NCBI GenBank assembly: GCA_045646785.1
Contig: JAZRLI010000001.1
Location: forward strand, 9,933 to 73,932
Direction: 5' to 3'
DNA length: 64,000 bases
Origin: Candidatus Cryptobacteroides sp.
GTDB lineage: Bacteria; Bacteroidota; Bacteroidia; Bacteroidales; UBA932
Made by a program: the position numbers and the translations under genes. Below the pieces are notes generated by a model that saw only the letters and a list, made by a program, of their open reading frames with translations, did not search any database and had not been told where the DNA came from. The stretch's first letter is position 1. Each line of letters opens with the position of its first letter. Shown piece after piece: positions 21,370 to 28,049 of the stretch.

Positions 21370-22077
21370 ATGGATAAAGGAAAATTCTATAGCGGTCTTT
21401 TCATAATGGTGGGTCTCGTGGTACTCGGACTGATGATGCCGAGGGCTGTCGACAGATTCCGTTCATTTGACCGCATAGTCAATGTGAAGGGCCTCTGCGA
21501 AAAGGAGGTCAAGGCCGACAAGGTCATCTGGCCGGTAGTCTATAGGGTCATGGCGAATGATATTCAGACGGTTTATGACCAGACCGACAGAAACAATGCG
21601 GAAATCATCGCCTTCCTCAAGGCGGGCGGTATCAATGAGGCTGAGATTACGGTTTCTGTTCCGGAGATATCCGACAAATATGCCACTGAATACGGCAGCA
21701 ACGACAGGGCATACCGTTTCATCGCAAAGAATGTGATAACTGTCTGCACTTCGGATGTCGATGCCGTACTTGCCCTCATGTCAAGGCAGTCAGACCTGTT
21801 GAAGAAGGGTATGGTGATCGGAGGCAGCAACGAGTGGGAGAACCCTGTGGAGTTCAAGTATGAGGGGCTGAATGAGATCAAGCCGGAGATGATCGAGGAG
21901 GCTACACGCAACGCCCGCGAAGCTGCGGAGAAGTTCGCAAAGGACTCCGACAGCAAGCTCGGCAAGATCAAGACAGCCAACCAGGGAACATTTACGATAG
22001 AAAACCGTGACAGCAACACCCCATATATCAAGAAGGTGCGCGTGGTCACATCAGTAACGTATTATCTTAAAAACTAA
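21370..22077 (+). CDS. SIMPL (DUF541) domain protein
   Basis: VNVKGLCEKEVKAD, MIEEATRNAREAAEKFAKDS, KKVRVV. Confidence 0.88.
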   Translation: MDKGKFYSGLFIMVGLVVLGLMMPRAVDRFRSFDRIVNVKGLCEKEVKADKVIWPVVYRVMANDIQTVYDQTDRNNAEIIAFLKAGGINEAEITVSVPEISDKYATEYGSNDRAYRFIAKNVITVCTSDVDAVLALMSRQSDLLKKGMVIGGSNEWENPVEFKYEGLNEIKPEMIEEATRNAREAAEKFAKDSDSKLGKIKTANQGTFTIENRDSNTPYIKKVRVVTSVTYYLKN

Positions 22078-22082
22078 TAACC

Positions 22083-22613
22083 ATGAAAAGGATTTTGACA
22101 ATCATTTTTGCTTCGATGATGGTGCTTGCAGTTTCAGCACCGGTCGAGGCCCAGGACAAGAAGGCGGAGCGTCAGGCACGCAAGGCGGAAAAGAAGCGTG
22201 AGCGTGAGATAAAGGACTCGCTCATGAACGTGATGAGGATGGCAGAGAAAGATTCTGTCAATGTAGGTTACGGATACACCAAGAAGGAGGATCTCAATTC
22301 AGCGGTTACCCGCAAGAAGACGCATAGAACCATTGACAGCTTCAATGATATCGCAGACTATATCCAGGGAACCGTACCGGGTGTCATTGTTCAGAAAAGC
22401 GGTGGTACAGTAAGATATATAATCAGAGGTGTAAGTACCAATTCGGATTTTACCGATCCTCTTCTGATGATAGATGGTGTTGAGGTGGACAACTTCGACA
22501 GTGTGATTCCAAGCCAGGTTGAATCCGTTGAGGTGATCAAGGACGGTTCTGCGTCAATATATGGCATTCGTGGAGGTGGCGGAGTAATCATGCTCACATT
22601 GAAGAAGGAGTAG
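22083..22613 (+). CDS. Exported protein consisting of a TonB-receptor plug domain only
   Basis: Signal peptide; VGYG, VPGV, IRG, DPLLMIDG, VESVEVIKDGSASIYGIRGGGGVIML, then stop with no barrel. Confidence 0.82.
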   Translation: MKRILTIIFASMMVLAVSAPVEAQDKKAERQARKAEKKREREIKDSLMNVMRMAEKDSVNVGYGYTKKEDLNSAVTRKKTHRTIDSFNDIADYIQGTVPGVIVQKSGGTVRYIIRGVSTNSDFTDPLLMIDGVEVDNFDSVIPSQVESVEVIKDGSASIYGIRGGGGVIMLTLKKE

Positions 22614-22614
22614 G

Positions 22615-22851
22615 CTATCTGTCCTTGATGGTGATCCTGTCCTTAGGTACGAAATAATAGCGCACGATGTCCGTTGCTACCTTTGGGTTGTGGGCAATGA
22701 TCCTGTTGGCCTTCTTCAAGGCACGGCGGAGTCGGTGATGGCGATAATGGCGTTTCAGCCAGCCGTATCTGTGATTACGGTCACTCAAGAAACTTAGGTC
22801 GTGGACTTCCACGACCTTTTTTGATGTCCTGTAATCGTTGTTCTTCTGCAT
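22615..22851 (-). CDS. Small basic protein resembling a segment of the GT4 glycosyltransferase N-terminal domain
   Basis: VVEVHDLSF...ANRIIA...DIVRYYFVPKDRI; own -7 element TAAATTTG at 22871-22878 (-). Confidence 0.6.
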   Translation of the reverse strand: MQKNNDYRTSKKVVEVHDLSFLSDRNHRYGWLKRHYRHHRLRRALKKANRIIAHNPKVATDIVRYYFVPKDRITIKDR

Positions 22852-22919
22852 TTGCAAATCTGATTTTCGGCAAATTTAGCGAATAGTTCCGAATTTTGGA
22901 TTATCTTTGCACACGGATT

Positions 22920-23005
22920 GCCTTGGTGGTGGAATAGGTAGACACGCGGGACTTAAAATCCCGTGGCCAGCAATGGCCGTACGGGTTCGATTCCCGTCCG
23001 AGGCA
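22920..23005 (+). tRNA. tRNA-Leu (TAA), intact and intron-less
   Basis: GCCTTGG/CCGAGGC acceptor stem, CGGGA-CT TAA AA-TCCCG anticodon arm, long variable arm TGGCCA-GCAA-TGGCCG; promoter TATCTTTG 22902-22909. Confidence 0.97.
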
Positions 23006-23011
23006 CATCAG

Positions 23012-23039
23012 GAAGCTGACTTTTCGGTCAGCTTCTTTT
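23012..23039 (+). terminator. Intrinsic terminator of tRNA-Leu
   Basis: GAAGCTGAC-TTTTCG-GTCAGCTTC-TTTT; duplicated at 26026-26053. Confidence 0.85.
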
Positions 23040-23175
23040 GTTATGTCCCAATTGTCATGCACTAACATACAGTTACAGGGGTAAGGACAAACACAAATGA
23101 TTTGAACTGACTTGCTTATGAAAAGTAGTAAGATTATATTTGCGTATTATTACGAACGCATTTTACAGGATTATT

Positions 23176-25716
23176 ATGAAAAACATTAACACTCGGACAT
23201 TTTTATCCTTATTCTTTCTTTATCTTTTCCTGATTTCAGGCTGCAAAGGCATGAAGATGGACATAGAAGATTTGAAAGACCGCCTTGATGTCCTTGAAGG
23301 AACTACAATAACTTCAATCAACCAGCAGATTTCCGCTATCAGCACATCCATCTCTGACCTGAAGGATATGGATGAAGCTCTTGATTCCTATATCAGGACA
23401 TTAGAAGAGACAGCGACGAATCTGCAGAGACAGATTGACGAGTCCAATGCAGAGATTGCAAAGCTAGAGGCAGAGTTCGGAGAGGAAATCGATGCTCTTG
23501 AGCAGAACCTGCTGGATGAACTCAATGCGGCTAAAGAATCTATCCTGGCGGAGTTGACGGTGATAAACAAGACCCTCGGCGAACTTAAGGCGGCAGATGA
23601 GGCTCTTGATAAGAAAATATCAGACCTTCAGACCTATGTTGATGTTGAGCTCTCTTCAATAAAGGACTGGGCTAATACGACTTTCTCGACATTGGCTCAG
23701 TACGAGCTGGTACAGACTGAAATCTCTACCATCAAGGCGCTGATAGAACAGATAAATGCAGAAATGATAGCTCTGGAAACCCGCCTTGATGCCAAGATTG
23801 CGGCAGATATTCAGGCTGCGATTGACACACTCCGTTCAGAACTTTCAGACGATTATGTTGCAAGAATTGAAAGCGCAGTCAGTTCAATCACCCAGGCCTA
23901 TAGCACTGCAATTTCCTCCGCAAAGTCTGAGATAACCGCAGCATACACTGAAGCCATAGCGACTGCAATCAGAGAAAGCGAAGCCAACTTAAAGGACTGG
24001 GTCAACGAACAGCTTGTCAAAGGATATTACGATATCGCGACAATAGATGCCATACTTTATGCCCTTACTGTAAGATTGGATAATGCCGATTCGGATCTTC
24101 AGAAACAGATTTCAGACCAGCAGGCTGCTCTGGAAGCCTTGAAGAGCGAATTCACGAAGGCATATATGAGTGCAATAAAGGAGGCGATTGAGGAAAATAA
24201 CGGAGTTATATCTGCAGTCATTGCATCAGCCGTAAAGGAACTTGAGGATAATCTTCAGAAACAGATAGATGAGATTAATCTTCAGATAAGAACCATCGCC
24301 GATTCTCTTTCCGATCTTGAAGATGCGTTCGTCAATAGAATCCAGAGTCTTAGATTCATCCCCGAATTCAGTGACAGGAAAGTGAAGTTTTCCTATCAAT
24401 CCGGTGCTGTTCTGGATTTTATGGTAGCTCCGGAAAAGCAGGCTGCGGTACTTGCAGAAGCGTGGAATGCCGATAAGAATATTGTAAAGGCATACTTGAG
24501 ATATACCTCAGATCCTTCCACCCGCGCTGTTTGTGACCCGATTGAACTTGCGGTGGAGTCTGTGACTTCTAACGGCAAAGGGGATATCAGTGTGCTGATA
24601 AAAGAAAATCCAGACACACCTCTGAGTTCAGACTTTTGGAACGAAAACCAGGATGCAGTGGTTTATCTGCGCATCTCTGATGGTTCAAATGATGTCATTT
24701 CCGAACTGATTGACGTTGTAGGCTATACGTATCCGGCCGTGAATTTGTCCCAGAATGGCACTGCCAACAGCTATGTTGTGTCTGAAGTGGGAAAATATAA
24801 GTTTGCTGCAGTCAAGGGTAACGGTAGTGAATCAGCAGGATCCATTGCATCCGCAGAAGTAATCTGGGAGAGTTTTGGCACATTAGTGACTCCGTCAGTG
24901 GGTGATCTTGTGAAGTCTGTATCCTATAAGGACGGTGACATCACCTTCAATACTGCTGACTCCTTTAAAGAGGGTAATGCAGTCATTTCAGTCAAGGATG
25001 CTTCTGGCAACATCCTGTGGTCATGGCACATATGGTTTACAGATGAGCCTCAGGAGCAGCTTTATTATAACAATGCCGGTACTATGATGGACCGCAACCT
25101 TGGAGCGACATCCGCTGTCCCTGGTGAGGTGGGAGCCATTGGTCTTATATATCAGTGGGGACGTAAGGATCCTTTCTTAAACTCTCCAGGTTTTTCAACA
25201 CCGGCCAACTCCACTATCTTATGGCCGTCAACAGTGTCATCAGATTCCGACCACGGTACCATCGGCTACGTCACGGCAAACCCAACAACTTTCATTGCAT
25301 CTAATAGTATTAATAACGATTGGTATTACACTGGCGATTCTTCAACGGATGATACCCGTTGGACAACTTCTGAAACAACGAAGTCTATATATGATCCATG
25401 TCCTGTAGGTTGGCGTATCCCGGATGATGTCTGGTCAAGAGCTCTAGGTCTGTCAGGAGATTATTACCTATATGGCTCATTTGACAAAGCCAACAAAGGT
25501 ATGGACTTCTCAGCACAGCTCGGTGATGACACCGTCATCTGGTATCCTGCTACAGGCTTAAGACTCAATGGCCTTATATACGGTGTGGGTACTGTCGGTA
25601 CTTATTGGTCTGCCTCTTCTAGGAACAACATGTTTTATTTCAACAACGACAGTTCAGTCAGCCTGTCGAATGGCGATCGTTCAGAAGGTTGCTCAGTCCG
25701 TTGCGTCAAAGAATAA
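23176..25716 (+). CDS. Large surface lipoprotein: long coiled-coil stalk, fimbrial-tip-like domain and CLec/FISUMP-like C-terminus
   Basis: Lipobox LISGC; helical heptad region to about NRIQSLRFIP; TANSYVV, GNAVI, ILWSWHIW, MDRNLGA, YQWGRKDPF, DPCPVGWRIP, GCSVRCVKE; promoter TATATTTG 23135-23142. Confidence 0.85.
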   Translation: MKNINTRTFLSLFFLYLFLISGCKGMKMDIEDLKDRLDVLEGTTITSINQQISAISTSISDLKDMDEALDSYIRTLEETATNLQRQIDESNAEIAKLEAEFGEEIDALEQNLLDELNAAKESILAELTVINKTLGELKAADEALDKKISDLQTYVDVELSSIKDWANTTFSTLAQYELVQTEISTIKALIEQINAEMIALETRLDAKIAADIQAAIDTLRSELSDDYVARIESAVSSITQAYSTAISSAKSEITAAYTEAIATAIRESEANLKDWVNEQLVKGYYDIATIDAILYALTVRLDNADSDLQKQISDQQAALEALKSEFTKAYMSAIKEAIEENNGVISAVIASAVKELEDNLQKQIDEINLQIRTIADSLSDLEDAFVNRIQSLRFIPEFSDRKVKFSYQSGAVLDFMVAPEKQAAVLAEAWNADKNIVKAYLRYTSDPSTRAVCDPIELAVESVTSNGKGDISVLIKENPDTPLSSDFWNENQDAVVYLRISDGSNDVISELIDVVGYTYPAVNLSQNGTANSYVVSEVGKYKFAAVKGNGSESAGSIASAEVIWESFGTLVTPSVGDLVKSVSYKDGDITFNTADSFKEGNAVISVKDASGNILWSWHIWFTDEPQEQLYYNNAGTMMDRNLGATSAVPGEVGAIGLIYQWGRKDPFLNSPGFSTPANSTILWPSTVSSDSDHGTIGYVTANPTTFIASNSINNDWYYTGDSSTDDTRWTTSETTKSIYDPCPVGWRIPDDVWSRALGLSGDYYLYGSFDKANKGMDFSAQLGDDTVIWYPATGLRLNGLIYGVGTVGTYWSASSRNNMFYFNNDSSVSLSNGDRSEGCSVRCVKE

Positions 25717-25730
25717 GCGTACTGCATCAA

Positions 25731-25779
25731 TGTCCCACAAATCCGAGTGTCGCCACGCTGATGCGGACTTCTGGGGGCA
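25731..25779. repeat. Imperfect inverted repeat just downstream of the islet gene
   Basis: TGTCCCACAAATCCG ... CGGACTTCTGGGGGCA. Confidence 0.55.
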
Positions 25780-25780
25780 G

Positions 25781-25967
25781 AACTGACCGCAAGGCGGAAA
25801 AGCAGGCTTTGGCGACGGCTCACTAAATTCGACCTCCAGTCGATAAATGGCGTAGAGACTATACAGGGAGGGCCTAAACGCATAAGCGCATGGTCAAGAA
25901 ATAGTCCAGACTACAACGGCTTAGCATTCAGGATGAAGCCGGCTTGTGTAAAAGCAAGAGTAGCAAG
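25781..25967 (+). ncRNA. Group I intron (IC3-like), 3' part (P5 remnant to omega-G)
   Basis: GG-CGTA-GAGACTA (P7 5', 25855-25861), AAGAA-ATAGTCC (J8/7 and P7 3', 25896-25907), P8 GGCC/GGTC with CCTAA..ATGG receptor-like motif, P6a TCGAC/GTCGA, P9 CGGCTT/AAGCCG, P9.0 CTAC/GTAG, terminal G25967 abutting the tRNA 3' exon. Confidence 0.8.
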
Positions 25968-26018
25968 AAAATCCCGTGGCCAGCAATGGCCGTACGGGTT
26001 CGATTCCCGTCCGAGGCA
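25968..26018 (+). pseudogene. tRNA-Leu 3' exon duplicate (from AA of the anticodon to the discriminator)
   Basis: Identical to 22955-23005; no 5' tRNA half upstream. Confidence 0.9.
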
Positions 26019-26111
26019 CATCAAAGAAGCTGACTTTTCGGTCAGCTTCTTTTTTTGTGTGCGGCCATGTCTTTGTGATAAGATTCATTCAGAACTGTTA
26101 CATGCGTGTCC

Positions 26112-26247
26112 GGAGGAGGGAGGGTAAATACGGCTTGGTTCCGTCGGAACAAGTTCCGACTCCATCCCTCCCACGCCTTCGGCGCGGGCCCCTCCCGCTA
26201 ACGGGGCCGCGGGTGGCCACGCCATCCGTATTTACCCTCCCTCCTCC
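26112..26247. repeat. Palindromic repeat element, copy B (136 bp)
   Basis: Perfect 22-bp arms GGAGGAGGGAGGGTAAATACGG (26112-26133)/26226-26247 around the same core as copy A, plus hairpin GTCGGAAC-AA-GTTCCGAC. Confidence 0.85.
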
Positions 26248-26262
26248 TGCCATTCTTGCCAG

Positions 26263-26450
26263 GTTTCTCCACGAAACCTTTGATTTGGTGGACAAACGCG
26301 TGGTTTGACGAGAGCTTCTCCACGAAACCTTCAGTTTGGTGGACAAACATAGTGTCTTGTCATACTTTCTCCACAAAAACCCTTAAACGGTGGACAAACT
26401 CATGAACGGACAAGGGTTTCTCCACAAAATCCCTCATTTGGTGGAGAAAC
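26263..26450. repeat. Array of four 35-bp palindromic units with 16-bp unique spacers (51-bp period)
   Basis: Units start at 26263, 26314, 26365, 26416: TTCTCCAC(G/A)AAA...GGTGGA(C/G)AAAC. Confidence 0.9.
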
Positions 26451-26468
26451 AGAATGACCGGCAGGAGG

Positions 26469-27215
26469 TTAGGCTCTTCCGACGAAAGCCAAGGTGGCTA
26501 TGCTTATGCGGACTGAGGGGGAGAATACCGATCGCAGGGCGGAGTGGCAGGCGTAGAGGGTGCTGCCGGTAGTGAAGACATCGTCTACTATGAGGATGTG
26601 CCTGATGTTGGATGCGGCGGAGGACTCTGGGGATGCAATGAATGCTCCTGTCACATTGCCGACCTTCTCCTCAACTTCCATCTTGGTCTGGGTACGGGTA
26701 CGTCTGCGGCGTTTCAGCAGGTCGGTCCTGAGGGGTATGCCAATGGACTCCGCTACTCCGGATGCGATGACCTCGGCCTGGTTGTATCCTCTTTTCAGTC
26801 TTCGGGTCCAGTGCAGGGGAACAGGCACGACCATGTCAACATCGGCAAACTGTTCCGATGCGGCAAGGCGGCTGCCCAGCATCCTTCCGAAGAAGCGTCC
26901 GGCATCCGTGTTTCCATGGTATTTGATCTGATAGGGGATGAGCCTGTATTCGGCCTCACTGTGATAGAATATGAGGGAGGCGGCAAAAGCATACCGTTCG
27001 TGAGCCGACGGCCCTCCCTTCTGTATCATTTCATTGAACTTGTCCGCCATAGGATTATGGCTCATCGACCAGTAGAACGTCAGCGGCAGGTCCGCCAGAC
27101 AGTTCAGGCAAAGATGCCTTTCATTCAGCAGAAGCCTTTGCCCGCAGACAAGGCATATCCTGGGAAGCACGATCTCTCCCGCCGCACGCAATCCCCTCAA
27201 AACACTTCCTTTCAT
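26469..27215 (-). CDS. comF: ComF family protein (zinc ribbon + PRTase domain)
   Basis: CLVC/CLNC, VPVPLH, RGYNQA, LIVDDVFTTGST; TACCTTTG promoter immediately upstream. Confidence 0.9.
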   Translation of the reverse strand: MKGSVLRGLRAAGEIVLPRICLVCGQRLLLNERHLCLNCLADLPLTFYWSMSHNPMADKFNEMIQKGGPSAHERYAFAASLIFYHSEAEYRLIPYQIKYHGNTDAGRFFGRMLGSRLAASEQFADVDMVVPVPLHWTRRLKRGYNQAEVIASGVAESIGIPLRTDLLKRRRRTRTQTKMEVEEKVGNVTGAFIASPESSAASNIRHILIVDDVFTTGSTLYACHSALRSVFSPSVRISIATLAFVGRA

Positions 27216-27230
27216 GTCTCAAAGGTAAAT

Positions 27231-27262
27231 AAAAAAGTCCTGAAGATTCACATCTGCAGGAC
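27231..27262 (-). terminator. Intrinsic terminator of fabG
   Basis: Minus strand GTCCTGCAGAT-GTGA-ATCTTCAGGAC-TTTTTT. Confidence 0.7.
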
Positions 27263-27302
27263 CTCAAGTTTAGGTTTTTGTGGTTAAGAATCTATAAGAA
27301 AG

Positions 27303-28049
27303 CTAACAATTCATGCCTCCACAGCAGTTGATGACCTGGCCGGTAACATATCCGGAAAGGTCGCTAGCCAGGAAGACTGCTACGTCTGCCACATCTTCCG
27401 GCTTGCCTGCACGTCTCATAGGAATCTGCTTCTCCCATTCTGTCTTTACATTCTCAGGGAGAGCTCCTGTCATATCTGTCTCAATGAATCCCGGCGCGAT
27501 GCAGTTTGCTCTGATGCCGCGCGGGCCCATTTCTTTGGCGATTGATTTTGCAAGACCGATCAGACCTGCCTTTGAAGCAGAGTAGTTGCACTGTCCTGCA
27601 TTTCCCGATACACCGACAACCGATGACATGTTGATGATGCTTCCGCTTCTCTGTCTTGCCATCACCGGTGTACACGCATGGATGAAATTGAATGCCGACT
27701 TGAGGTTTGTGTCGATCACCGCATCCCACTGAGCCTCGTCCATCCTCATCATAAGGCCGTCCTTGGTAATGCCGGCATTGTTGACGAGAACATCGATTCG
27801 GCCGAATGCAGCCTTGACTTCATCCACAACCTTGTGAGCGTCTTCGTACGATGCCGCGTCAGATGCAAAGGCCATTGCCTTTACTCCTGCGGCTTCAAGC
27901 TCTGAAACGAGAGCCTGAGCTGCCTCGTGCTGTGACCTGTATGTGAAGGCAACGTCTGCACCTTCCGCTGCAAATCTCAGAGCGATCGCTCTTCCGATGC
28001 CTCTTGTAGCTCCTGTCACAAGGGCTGTCTTTCCTGTAAGAAGTCCCAT
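27303..28049 (-). CDS. fabG: 3-oxoacyl-ACP reductase
   Basis: TGATRGIG, NNAGITKD, YSASK; start re-set to MGLLTGK. Confidence 0.93.
   Translation of the reverse strand: MGLLTGKTALVTGATRGIGRAIALRFAAEGADVAFTYRSQHEAAQALVSELEAAGVKAMAFASDAASYEDAHKVVDEVKAAFGRIDVLVNNAGITKDGLMMRMDEAQWDAVIDTNLKSAFNFIHACTPVMARQRSGSIINMSSVVGVSGNAGQCNYSASKAGLIGLAKSIAKEMGPRGIRANCIAPGFIETDMTGALPENVKTEWEKQIPMRRAGKPEDVADVAVFLASDLSGYVTGQVINCCGGMNC

What the first reader, a model, noticed from the sequence alone, without database searches (positions are those of the whole stretch)
25781..26018. Orphan group I intron 3' half fused to a tRNA-Leu(UAA) 3' exon at the far end of a tRNA islet
Seen: the distal tRNA duplicate starts exactly at AAAATCCCG (25968), after the U of the UAA anticodon, and the preceding base is G. 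The ~190 nt upstream contain, in correct order, P6a, GG-CGUA-GAGACUA, P8 with a CCUAA/AUGG receptor-like motif, AAGAA-AUAGUCC, P9.0 and P9. Established: U^AA is the insertion site of IC3 group I introns in tRNA-Leu(UAA), introns end in omega-G, and this core closely parallels the Azoarcus tRNA-Ile intron. Seen: the functional tRNA 3 kb upstream is intron-less, and I find no convincing P1/IGS or 5' strands of P3/P4. Inference, three options: (a) an element integrated at an intron-containing tRNA and supplied an intron-less 3' half, curing the tRNA and displacing the intron; (b) the element's att site lies inside the intron and attP carries intron 3' half plus exon; (c) speculatively, a 5'-exon-less ribozyme plus 3' exon that acts in trans. 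tRNA group I introns are not a feature I associate with Bacteroidales.
Basis: partly seen in the sequence, partly recalled or inferred. Interest (0 to 1): 0.88.

Follow-up and report, generated by a model that had tools for sequence, protein, structure and literature searches.

The report
Broken intron left by recombination
This is the back two-thirds of a real tRNA intron of the self-splicing (group I) type, fused to the tail of a neighbouring gene, likely by a sloppy DNA exchange between two versions of the same chromosome region; it is likely an inert scar, but it comes from an intron lineage of gut Bacteroidales and their phages whose normally well-paired core helix P4 is mostly mismatched.

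Summary
Observation confirmed, interpretation only partly. Bases 25808-25967 are the 3' part of a group I intron ending in omega-G, followed by a tRNA-Leu(UAA) 3' exon. Full-length relatives (up to 95% identical) sit in tRNA-Leu(UAA) genes of this genus, other gut Bacteroidales and phages. The DNA upstream (25727-25807) is not intron: it is the 3' end of a comF gene on the minus strand. The join is a 14-base near-match (6 exact) shared by comF and the intron. Metagenome contigs from three studies show the locus without the 745 extra bases; two runs of a fourth study span the join. No other genome of 400 has this truncation, and the guide sequence and the 5' strands of P3, P4 and P5 are missing. 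Best reading: a likely inert scar of homology-anchored, microhomology-joined recombination between an intron-less and an intron-bearing allele; no att site, no trans-ribozyme. By-product: the parent subfamily is missed by Rfam RF00028 (0 of 22 loci) and pairs only 3 of 7 P4 positions. The scan found Bacteroidales and phage tRNA-Leu introns before on other DNA; my look-ups found no note on the weak P4.

The parts
22920..23006 (+). Intact, intron-less tRNA-Leu(UAA) gene (allele A)
   Evidence: ARAGORN and Rfam
23010..23037 (+). Terminator-like hairpin after the tRNA
23140..25716 (+). 858-aa ORF, coiled-coil N-terminal part and weak FISUMP-like C-terminal domain; likely lipoprotein (inferred); variable cargo of allele A
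   Evidence: TIGR02145 24.3 bits, below its cut-off 41.65
25727..25807 (-). Last 26 codons and stop of a comF gene (3' end of allele A), now a stub
   Evidence: translation and tblastn, 76% identical to residues 222-246 of the full comF; continuous with an intact comF in contigs of X1, X2, X6
25794..25807 (+). Junction microhomology: 12 of 14 bases shared between the comF reverse strand and the intron's P5 extension; last 6 exact and repeated at 26547-26552
   Evidence: only 14-mer with at most 2 mismatches between stub and an intact intron; 6 letters fit both sides of the joint
25808..25967 (+). 3' part of a group I intron: P5 3' strand, J5/4, P4 3' strand (25816-25822), P6/P6a, P7, P3 3' strand, P8, P9, omega-G; lacks P1/IGS, P2 and the 5' strands of P3, P4, P5
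   Evidence: alignment to full introns, pair counts, model score, coordinates
25968..26023 (+). tRNA-Leu(UAA) 3' exon copy, 100% identical to 22955-23010
26023..26052 (+). Second terminator-like hairpin
26053..26468 (.). Spacer of allele B with inverted repeats and a 3 x 51-bp direct repeat
26469..27215 (-). Full-length comF/GntX-like gene with the allele-B 3' end; the inferred homology anchor
   Evidence: ComF and GntX models matched below their cut-offs; strain differences

Best explanation
The segment is a 5'-truncated group I intron with its tRNA 3' exon, joined to a comF 3' end at a short shared sequence, and it is likely an inactive scar left by recombination between two alleles of the tRNA-Leu to comF interval. 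Shown: allele A (intron-less tRNA, 858-aa gene, intact comF) exists in close strains; intron-bearing tRNA, short spacer, convergent comF exists in close relatives; the window is A up to 25807 and then 745 extra bases of the second type. Inferred: donor DNA with the intron-bearing allele crossed over by homology inside comF on the right and joined on the left by microhomology between the recipient's comF tail and the donor's intron (homology-facilitated illegitimate recombination). Both the tRNA and comF stay whole, so the event would be tolerated. Inferred: the fragment may be transcribed as the 3' tail of the 858-aa mRNA but cannot fold an active core.
For: Empty site: joint 25801->26547 skipping 745 bases, 6 letters fitting both sides, in contigs of 3 of 4 runs laid (X1, X2, X6; three studies). 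Join real outside this assembly: X3 contig 25436-25863 with 3 differences and X10 contig of 2895 nt from the tRNA 3' end through the 858-aa gene to 25871 with 5 differences in 25500-25871. The junction is the only 14-mer with at most 2 mismatches between the 91-nt stub region and an intact intron. Donor-type arrangement in G038 and G395; recipient-type in G107. Donor tract: one X6 contig differs from the window at 19 of 331 bases in 26470-26800 but 12 of 796 beyond (Fisher p = 0.0002), while X1 differs by 1.3% left of the join. Unique: of 40 other genomes with a match, all hits reach the IGS, lie in a split tRNA gene or stop at a contig end. No 5' half in the assembly. Best pairing the stub offers to the P3 3' strand is -6.9 against -9.3 kcal/mol native, at the wrong distance. 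X10 carries G25817T at the P4 base that is invariant in 60 of 60 parsed introns.
Against: No contig spans the whole 745 bases. X3 and X10 stop inside the conserved intron core and show no cover of 26072-26115 or 26248-26511 at 90% likeness, so what follows the intron in those strains is not shown. Both runs are of one study. No intact intron-bearing allele of this same species was seen. The two terminators are 94% identical, closer than any relative's, which fits a near donor but not a distant one. The window's own fragment shows no decay (95% to G038 and G091). Direction of transfer rests on one contig's differences. comF is also an integration site in relatives, so a two-step route is possible. 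G25817T is one contig.
Confidence: 0.8

Rival explanations
1. Two steps: an element integrated (at the tRNA, or at the comF DDVFTTG site) and duplicated part of the locus; a later deletion between the two GCAGGC copies removed its left part, the 5' exon and the intron's 5' third. The end product is the same inert scar. This covers the first reader's option (a).
For: comF 3' stubs ending at the DDVFTTG codons in G095, G108 and G395 show a site-specific integration habit at comF. 10 of 179 other genomes with a comF C-terminus match have two or more matches (some may be contamination).
Against: The window's stub ends about 30 bases short of that site. No integrase ORF in 22900-27300. The divergent tract runs about 200 bases into comF beyond that site.
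Confidence: 0.08
2. The left join is real, but the part from the conserved intron core onward is an assembly path through repeats (intron core, tRNA exon) into another strain's allele.
For: Independent contigs break at 25863 and 25871; none spans the 745 bases; X10 lacks cover of the spacer.
Against: The second terminator region has its own variant bases, not a copy of the first. The arrangement intron, exon, terminator, spacer, comF matches G038 and G395. The truncated intron would still be a recombination scar.
Confidence: 0.06
3. The fragment is a maintained half-ribozyme that is completed in trans by a 5' half-intron on another RNA (for example a phage pre-tRNA of the same family) and splices its 3' exon onto a tRNA 5' half.
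For: The 3' core is undecayed; no terminator-like site lies between the 858-aa gene and the fragment; same-family introns occur in phages; the join is in more than one strain.
Against: Seen in one species only; no partner in the assembly; an invariant P4 base is changed in X10; the one RNA run laid had no contig over 25808-25939 (weak, contigs only).
Confidence: 0.03
4. The breakpoint is an att core inside the intron used by a family of islands.
For: Homologues all begin matching at 25794-25797, which looks like a shared breakpoint.
Against: Those homologues are full introns; the shared start is where the window's own intron part begins. No second truncated copy in 400 genomes.
Confidence: 0.02

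Closest known systems
tRNA-Leu(UAA) group I introns, class Leu.3Ug, subgroup IC3 (Williams 2020, bioRxiv 10.1101/2020.01.27.920355; main text read, Table 1 is an image, supplements not seen)
   Same: Same site (after the U of CUU, before AAAA), U at -1, omega-G, P1 guide sequence, P2 with GAAA loop, P3, P6-P9 and the P7 sequence; 9 of 38 distinct full introns of the subfamily are over 400 nt with an HNH ORF in the P1 loop.
   Different: The window copy lacks the 5' third and is outside a tRNA gene. The subfamily pairs only 3 of 7 P4 positions and has CGA or UGA at J5/4, whereas 9 of 9 canonical introns at the same site in the genus have a 6-pair P4. RF00028 hits 4 of 4 canonical loci (45-62 bits) and 0 of 22 subfamily loci.
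Homology-facilitated illegitimate recombination (passages of PMC6382021 read; de Vries and Wackernagel 2002 seen only as a reference-list entry)
   Same: One end in homologous DNA (comF), the other at a short match; those passages give 3 to 10 bp segments and name Streptococcus, Acinetobacter and Pseudomonas.
   Different: Here it is read from a genome and population contigs, not shown by experiment; the uptake route in this bacterium is unknown.
Islands integrated in tRNA genes that leave a displaced tRNA 3' fragment (own knowledge)
   Same: Intact tRNA on one side, 3' fragment plus terminator on the other.
   Different: The fragment carries an intron part, the interval has no integrase, and the empty form keeps the cargo gene but not the fragment.
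Recombination of the whole tRNA-Leu(UAA) locus in cyanobacteria (Rudi et al. 2002; title only, from the reference list of PMC3984707)
   Same: By its title, intron-bearing tRNA-Leu loci move by recombination of the locus as well as by intron transfer.
   Different: Text not seen; no truncated product known to me from it.

Membership tests
Group I intron (parent subfamily, full-length copies) | U at -1 paired to a guide sequence (P1) and omega-G at the 3' end | tested here: met
   38 of 38 distinct full introns have the GAGUGC guide and end in G; 5' exons end in GGACUU
Group I intron (parent subfamily, full-length copies) | P3-P7-P8-P9 catalytic domain with G-binding site | tested here: met
   P3: 4 of 6 pairs change on both sides; P8 and P9.1/9.2 covary; P7 6 of 6 pairs invariant, so no covariation there (44 sequences)
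Group I intron (parent subfamily, full-length copies) | P4 helix formed by P and Q elements (PMC3984707 section 5) | tested here: inconclusive
   Register supported by one perfectly covarying pair (A-U 44, G-C 13, C-G 3 of 60) and two invariant pairs; the other four positions are mostly A.G, A.C, C.C, A.A (47.7% of cells paired)
Group I intron (parent subfamily, full-length copies) | P5 and P6 stacked on P4 | tested here: met
   CC/GG in 60 of 60; P6 three invariant pairs; P6a and P5 extension covary at all 12 pairs
Group I intron (parent subfamily, full-length copies) | Guanosine-initiated self-splicing | not testable with these tools
   Indirect: in 5 of 5 genomes 93-98% complete the only tRNA-Leu(UAA) found is the split one, so removal is inferred to occur
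Rfam RF00028 | Score at or above 50 bits | tested here: not met
   No hit for the window or for 22 subfamily loci at E<=1
Subgroup IC3 | Compact core, P2 tetraloop with P8 receptor, tRNA anticodon site (features recalled; site from Williams 2020) | tested here: inconclusive
   Site, P2 GAAA and CCUAA/AUGG-like motif present; P4 differs; no subgroup model was available to score
Functional intron (the window copy) | P1/IGS and both strands of P3, P4, P5 on one RNA, between two exons | tested here: not met
   5' third replaced by comF reverse strand
tRNA-targeted integrative element | Integrase, att repeats, empty site lacking the cargo | tested here: not met
   No integrase ORF; the empty form lacks the 745-bp piece and keeps the 858-aa gene
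Homology-facilitated illegitimate recombination product | Microhomology at one end | tested here: met
   6 exact, 12 of 14
Homology-facilitated illegitimate recombination product | Homologous crossover at the other end | tested here: inconclusive
   Divergent tract in 26470-26800 falling to background beyond; donor not in hand
Homology-facilitated illegitimate recombination product | RecA dependence during DNA uptake | not testable with these tools
   needs experiment

The most novel reading that the evidence does not exclude
The parent introns are an unrecognised structural subgroup of group I ribozymes, spread between gut Bacteroidales and their phages, in which the P4 scaffold helix is replaced by a conserved run of non-canonical pairs (A.G, A.C, C.C) held by three standard pairs, and which still splice an essential tRNA on their own. 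That would be a natural test case for how much of P4 a group I core needs.
Probability: 0.45. Interest if true: 0.55.

Novelty: new variant of a known kind. Interest (0 to 1): 0.3.

Why it matters
The fragment itself matters little: it is a snapshot of how an intron-bearing tRNA locus is shuffled between strains, and a warning that a displaced tRNA fragment need not mark an island. The parent subfamily matters more. It is invisible to the standard Rfam model, makes ARAGORN mislabel tRNA-Leu as Ser, Phe or Tyr in many genomes, carries HNH endonuclease genes, and keeps a mostly mismatched P4 where group I introns normally have a full helix. If it self-splices unaided, it makes the minimal requirement for the P4-P6 scaffold testable with natural sequences.

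Tried and rejected
Rfam on the window: no group I hit. Folding energy: no signal. First idea that the whole 3013 bases form one intron with cargo: rejected, since no intron 5' part follows the first tRNA and the piece before the core is comF. Idea that 25733-25807 is a new repeated RNA element: rejected, all matches are comF 3' ends. Idea that the subfamily has lost P4 altogether: rejected once phage copies showed the covarying P4 pair. The GAGUG at 25746-25750 resembles the guide sequence but is comF coding sequence, also present in G107's intact comF. Metagenome pattern scans for the junction: 0 hits with 32 bases; 120 hits with 18 bases, none similar to 22000-27600 by blastn, so chance. Order-wide model search: 0 of 150 other genomes, about one per genus, strict filters, so the subfamily is patchy. 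RNA run X15: no contig over the intron part, uninformative. Runs with small word shares (X15-X24) were not used for habitat. Rows dropped before the 60-sequence P4 count: duplicates, one chance phage hit (L172) and five phage introns with long insertions that my pattern did not parse (L170, L174, L188, L196, L200). No protein fold or complex job was needed.

Full report
Observation. The window has an intron-less tRNA-Leu(UAA) at 22920-23006. Rfam finds no group I intron in 25600-26100 even at E<=5 and the folding energy is ordinary, so the call had to rest on homologues.

Homologues. In 150 genomes of the genus, 24 matched 25700-25967. The strong matches all start at 25794-25797 and are full introns of 231-750 nt inside tRNA-Leu(UAA), with the 5' exon ending in GGACUU, a GAGUGC guide, and omega-G (38 of 38 distinct full copies). 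With a full intron as query, 40 of 400 other genomes of the genus match. A motif scan of species genomes stopped at 119 stretches; 28 of the 80 titled ones are this intron and all 28 titles are Bacteroidales (part of that output was cut). A scan of viral contigs gave 31 stretches, all but one intron-like, most inside tRNA genes. A model search over about one genome per genus of the order found 0 of 150, so the family is patchy. Nine of the 38 are long and carry an ORF in the P1 loop; 4 of 4 such ORFs scanned (three of this subfamily, one canonical) match Pfam HNH_3 above its cut-off. A model built from 44 copies without the window scores the window at 170.9 bits and finds no second copy in the assembly.

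What lies upstream. 25727-25807 read on the minus strand gives the last 26 residues of a comF protein and its stop; every weaker match of that part in other genomes is a comF 3' end. A full comF lies 745 bases further on (26469-27215). The intron part therefore begins at 25802-25808, inside the 3' arm of the P5 extension. It keeps J5/4, the P4 3' strand, P6, P7, the P3 3' strand, P8, P9 and omega-G and lacks P1/IGS, P2 and the 5' strands of P3, P4 and P5. The stub offers no good substitute for the P3 5' strand.

The junction. The last 14 bases of the stub match the intron's P5 extension at 12 positions, the last 6 exactly; it is the only such 14-mer between the stub and an intact intron. The same 6 bases stand at the homologous place of the full comF (26547-26552).

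Population evidence. None of the 24 runs listed holds half of the words of 25500-26500. Contigs of X1, X2 and X6 (3 of 4 runs laid, three studies) join 25801 to 26547, which is the locus without the 745 bases and with one intact comF. Contigs of X3 and X10 (one further study) cross the stub/intron join by 56 and 64 bases with 3 and 5 differences from the window; the X10 contig reaches back to the tRNA 3' end. So the join is not peculiar to this assembly. Limits: both contigs end in the conserved intron core, no contig spans the 745 bases, and X3 and X10 show no cover of most of the spacer. An X6 contig has the allele-B comF 3' end, and another has 35 bases of tRNA 3' end followed by the terminator and the start of the spacer. 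Against X6 the window differs at 19 of 331 bases in 26470-26800 and 12 of 796 beyond (p = 0.0002), and against X1 at 1.3% left of the join. I read this as a donor tract from 25808 into comF. In related species, G038 and G395 have intron-bearing tRNA then a convergent comF 3' end within 1 kb; G107 has intron-less tRNA, one gene, comF.

Uniqueness. Of the 40 other genomes with a match, 26 match from the guide sequence on; the rest are diverged or canonical introns in split tRNA genes, or are cut by a contig end. None has a match spanning the join. These are one genome per species and many are incomplete.

Mechanism. Shown: both allele types, the join, the microhomology, the missing strands. Inferred: a crossover in comF plus an illegitimate join at the microhomology, as in homology-facilitated illegitimate recombination (passages of PMC6382021). 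The reverse direction (intron-less DNA entering an intron-bearing chromosome) gives the same map; the divergence pattern favours the intron-bearing DNA as donor. No terminator-like site lies between the 858-aa gene and the fragment and no promoter-like site near it (sigma-70 consensus only), so it may be a 3' tail of that mRNA. In X10 a P4 base invariant in 60 of 60 introns is changed, as expected if selection is relaxed; this is one contig. Confidence 0.8. Rivals: two-step integration and deletion 0.08, mis-assembled right part 0.06, trans-acting half-ribozyme 0.03, att core in the intron 0.02.

The parent subfamily. Two main intron types share this tRNA site in the genus. The canonical type has a 6-pair P4 in 9 of 9 copies and is hit by RF00028 in 4 of 4 loci tested, three above the gathering score. 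The window's type is hit in 0 of 22 loci (two of these are the same place). On 44 distinct copies my structure pairs 91% of cells, with 38 of 67 pairs changing on both sides, above all shuffles and slid controls (the structure was derived from these sequences, and kin are not independent). P2, P3, the P5 extension, P6a, P8, P9.1 and P9.2 covary; P6 and P7 are invariant. P4 is the exception, 47.7% paired: one pair covaries without a miss in 60 distinct bacterial and phage copies (A-U 44, G-C 13, C-G 3), two are invariant, and the others are A.G or A.A, A.C, mostly C.C, mostly A.A. In 5 of 5 near-complete genomes tested, the split gene is the only tRNA-Leu(UAA) found (three exact matches to an 11-base spliced-junction pattern in two of them are not tRNA matches), so these introns are inferred to be removed in vivo. 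Whether they do so unaided is untested.

Comparison with what is known. The site is class Leu.3Ug of Williams 2020 (main text read; its table by phylum is an image and its model files were not seen, so the subfamily may be catalogued there). P4 as a core helix is from PMC3984707 section 5; that review has no occurrence of 'Bacteroid'. Searches for group I introns in Bacteroidales or Prevotella tRNA genes, or with a reduced P4, listed no paper on the point (open-access library only, titles and abstract starts seen). Earlier notes of this scan report Bacteroidales and phage tRNA-Leu introns on other DNA; a look-up for a changed P4 and one for look-alikes of this locus returned nothing.

Verdict. 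Real feature, correct intron call, ordinary cause: a recent recombination scar, likely inert. The new element is the weak-P4 subfamily it came from. Novelty: new variant of a known kind. Interest 0.3.

Noticed in passing
L036:13006-13086 (G095), L360:3985-4110 (G108), L359:6257-6364 (G395): comF 3' stubs that all stop at the DDVFTTG codons and run into similar AT-rich DNA, next to large lipoprotein-like genes; comF looks like the integration site of an island or cassette family in this genus. No integrase was looked for.
   Followed up: partly
L355, L357 (G220, G378): A third intron type at the same tRNA-Leu site with an intermediate P4 (one mismatch) and a different P9; suggests a graded series between canonical and weak P4.
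   Followed up: partly
L008, L053, L070 (weak-P4 type); L015, L016, L021, L024, L025 (canonical type): Related HNH ORFs sit in the P1 loop of both intron types; in the canonical type the ORF runs on through the ribozyme core.
   Followed up: partly
L170-L200 (viral contigs): Weak-P4 introns in phage tRNA genes of several isotypes by ARAGORN (Leu, Lys and others, labels unreliable for split genes), some with a different guide sequence and some with long insertions in P6 and P8.
   Followed up: partly
window 26084-26275: Inverted-repeat element with many copies across the genus and in this assembly, REP-like.
   Followed up: no
window 26264-26456: Three 51-bp direct repeats with internal palindromes; related stretches on contigs C9, C32 and C75 of the assembly.
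   Followed up: no
L364 (G237 C2:137400-140000): A cluster of seven tRNA genes with one split tRNA-Leu and a second intron-like core near the edge; may be a prophage.
   Followed up: no
L031, L034-L037: The order and orientation of fabG, comF and tRNA-Leu differ among close relatives, so the interval is often rearranged.
   Followed up: no
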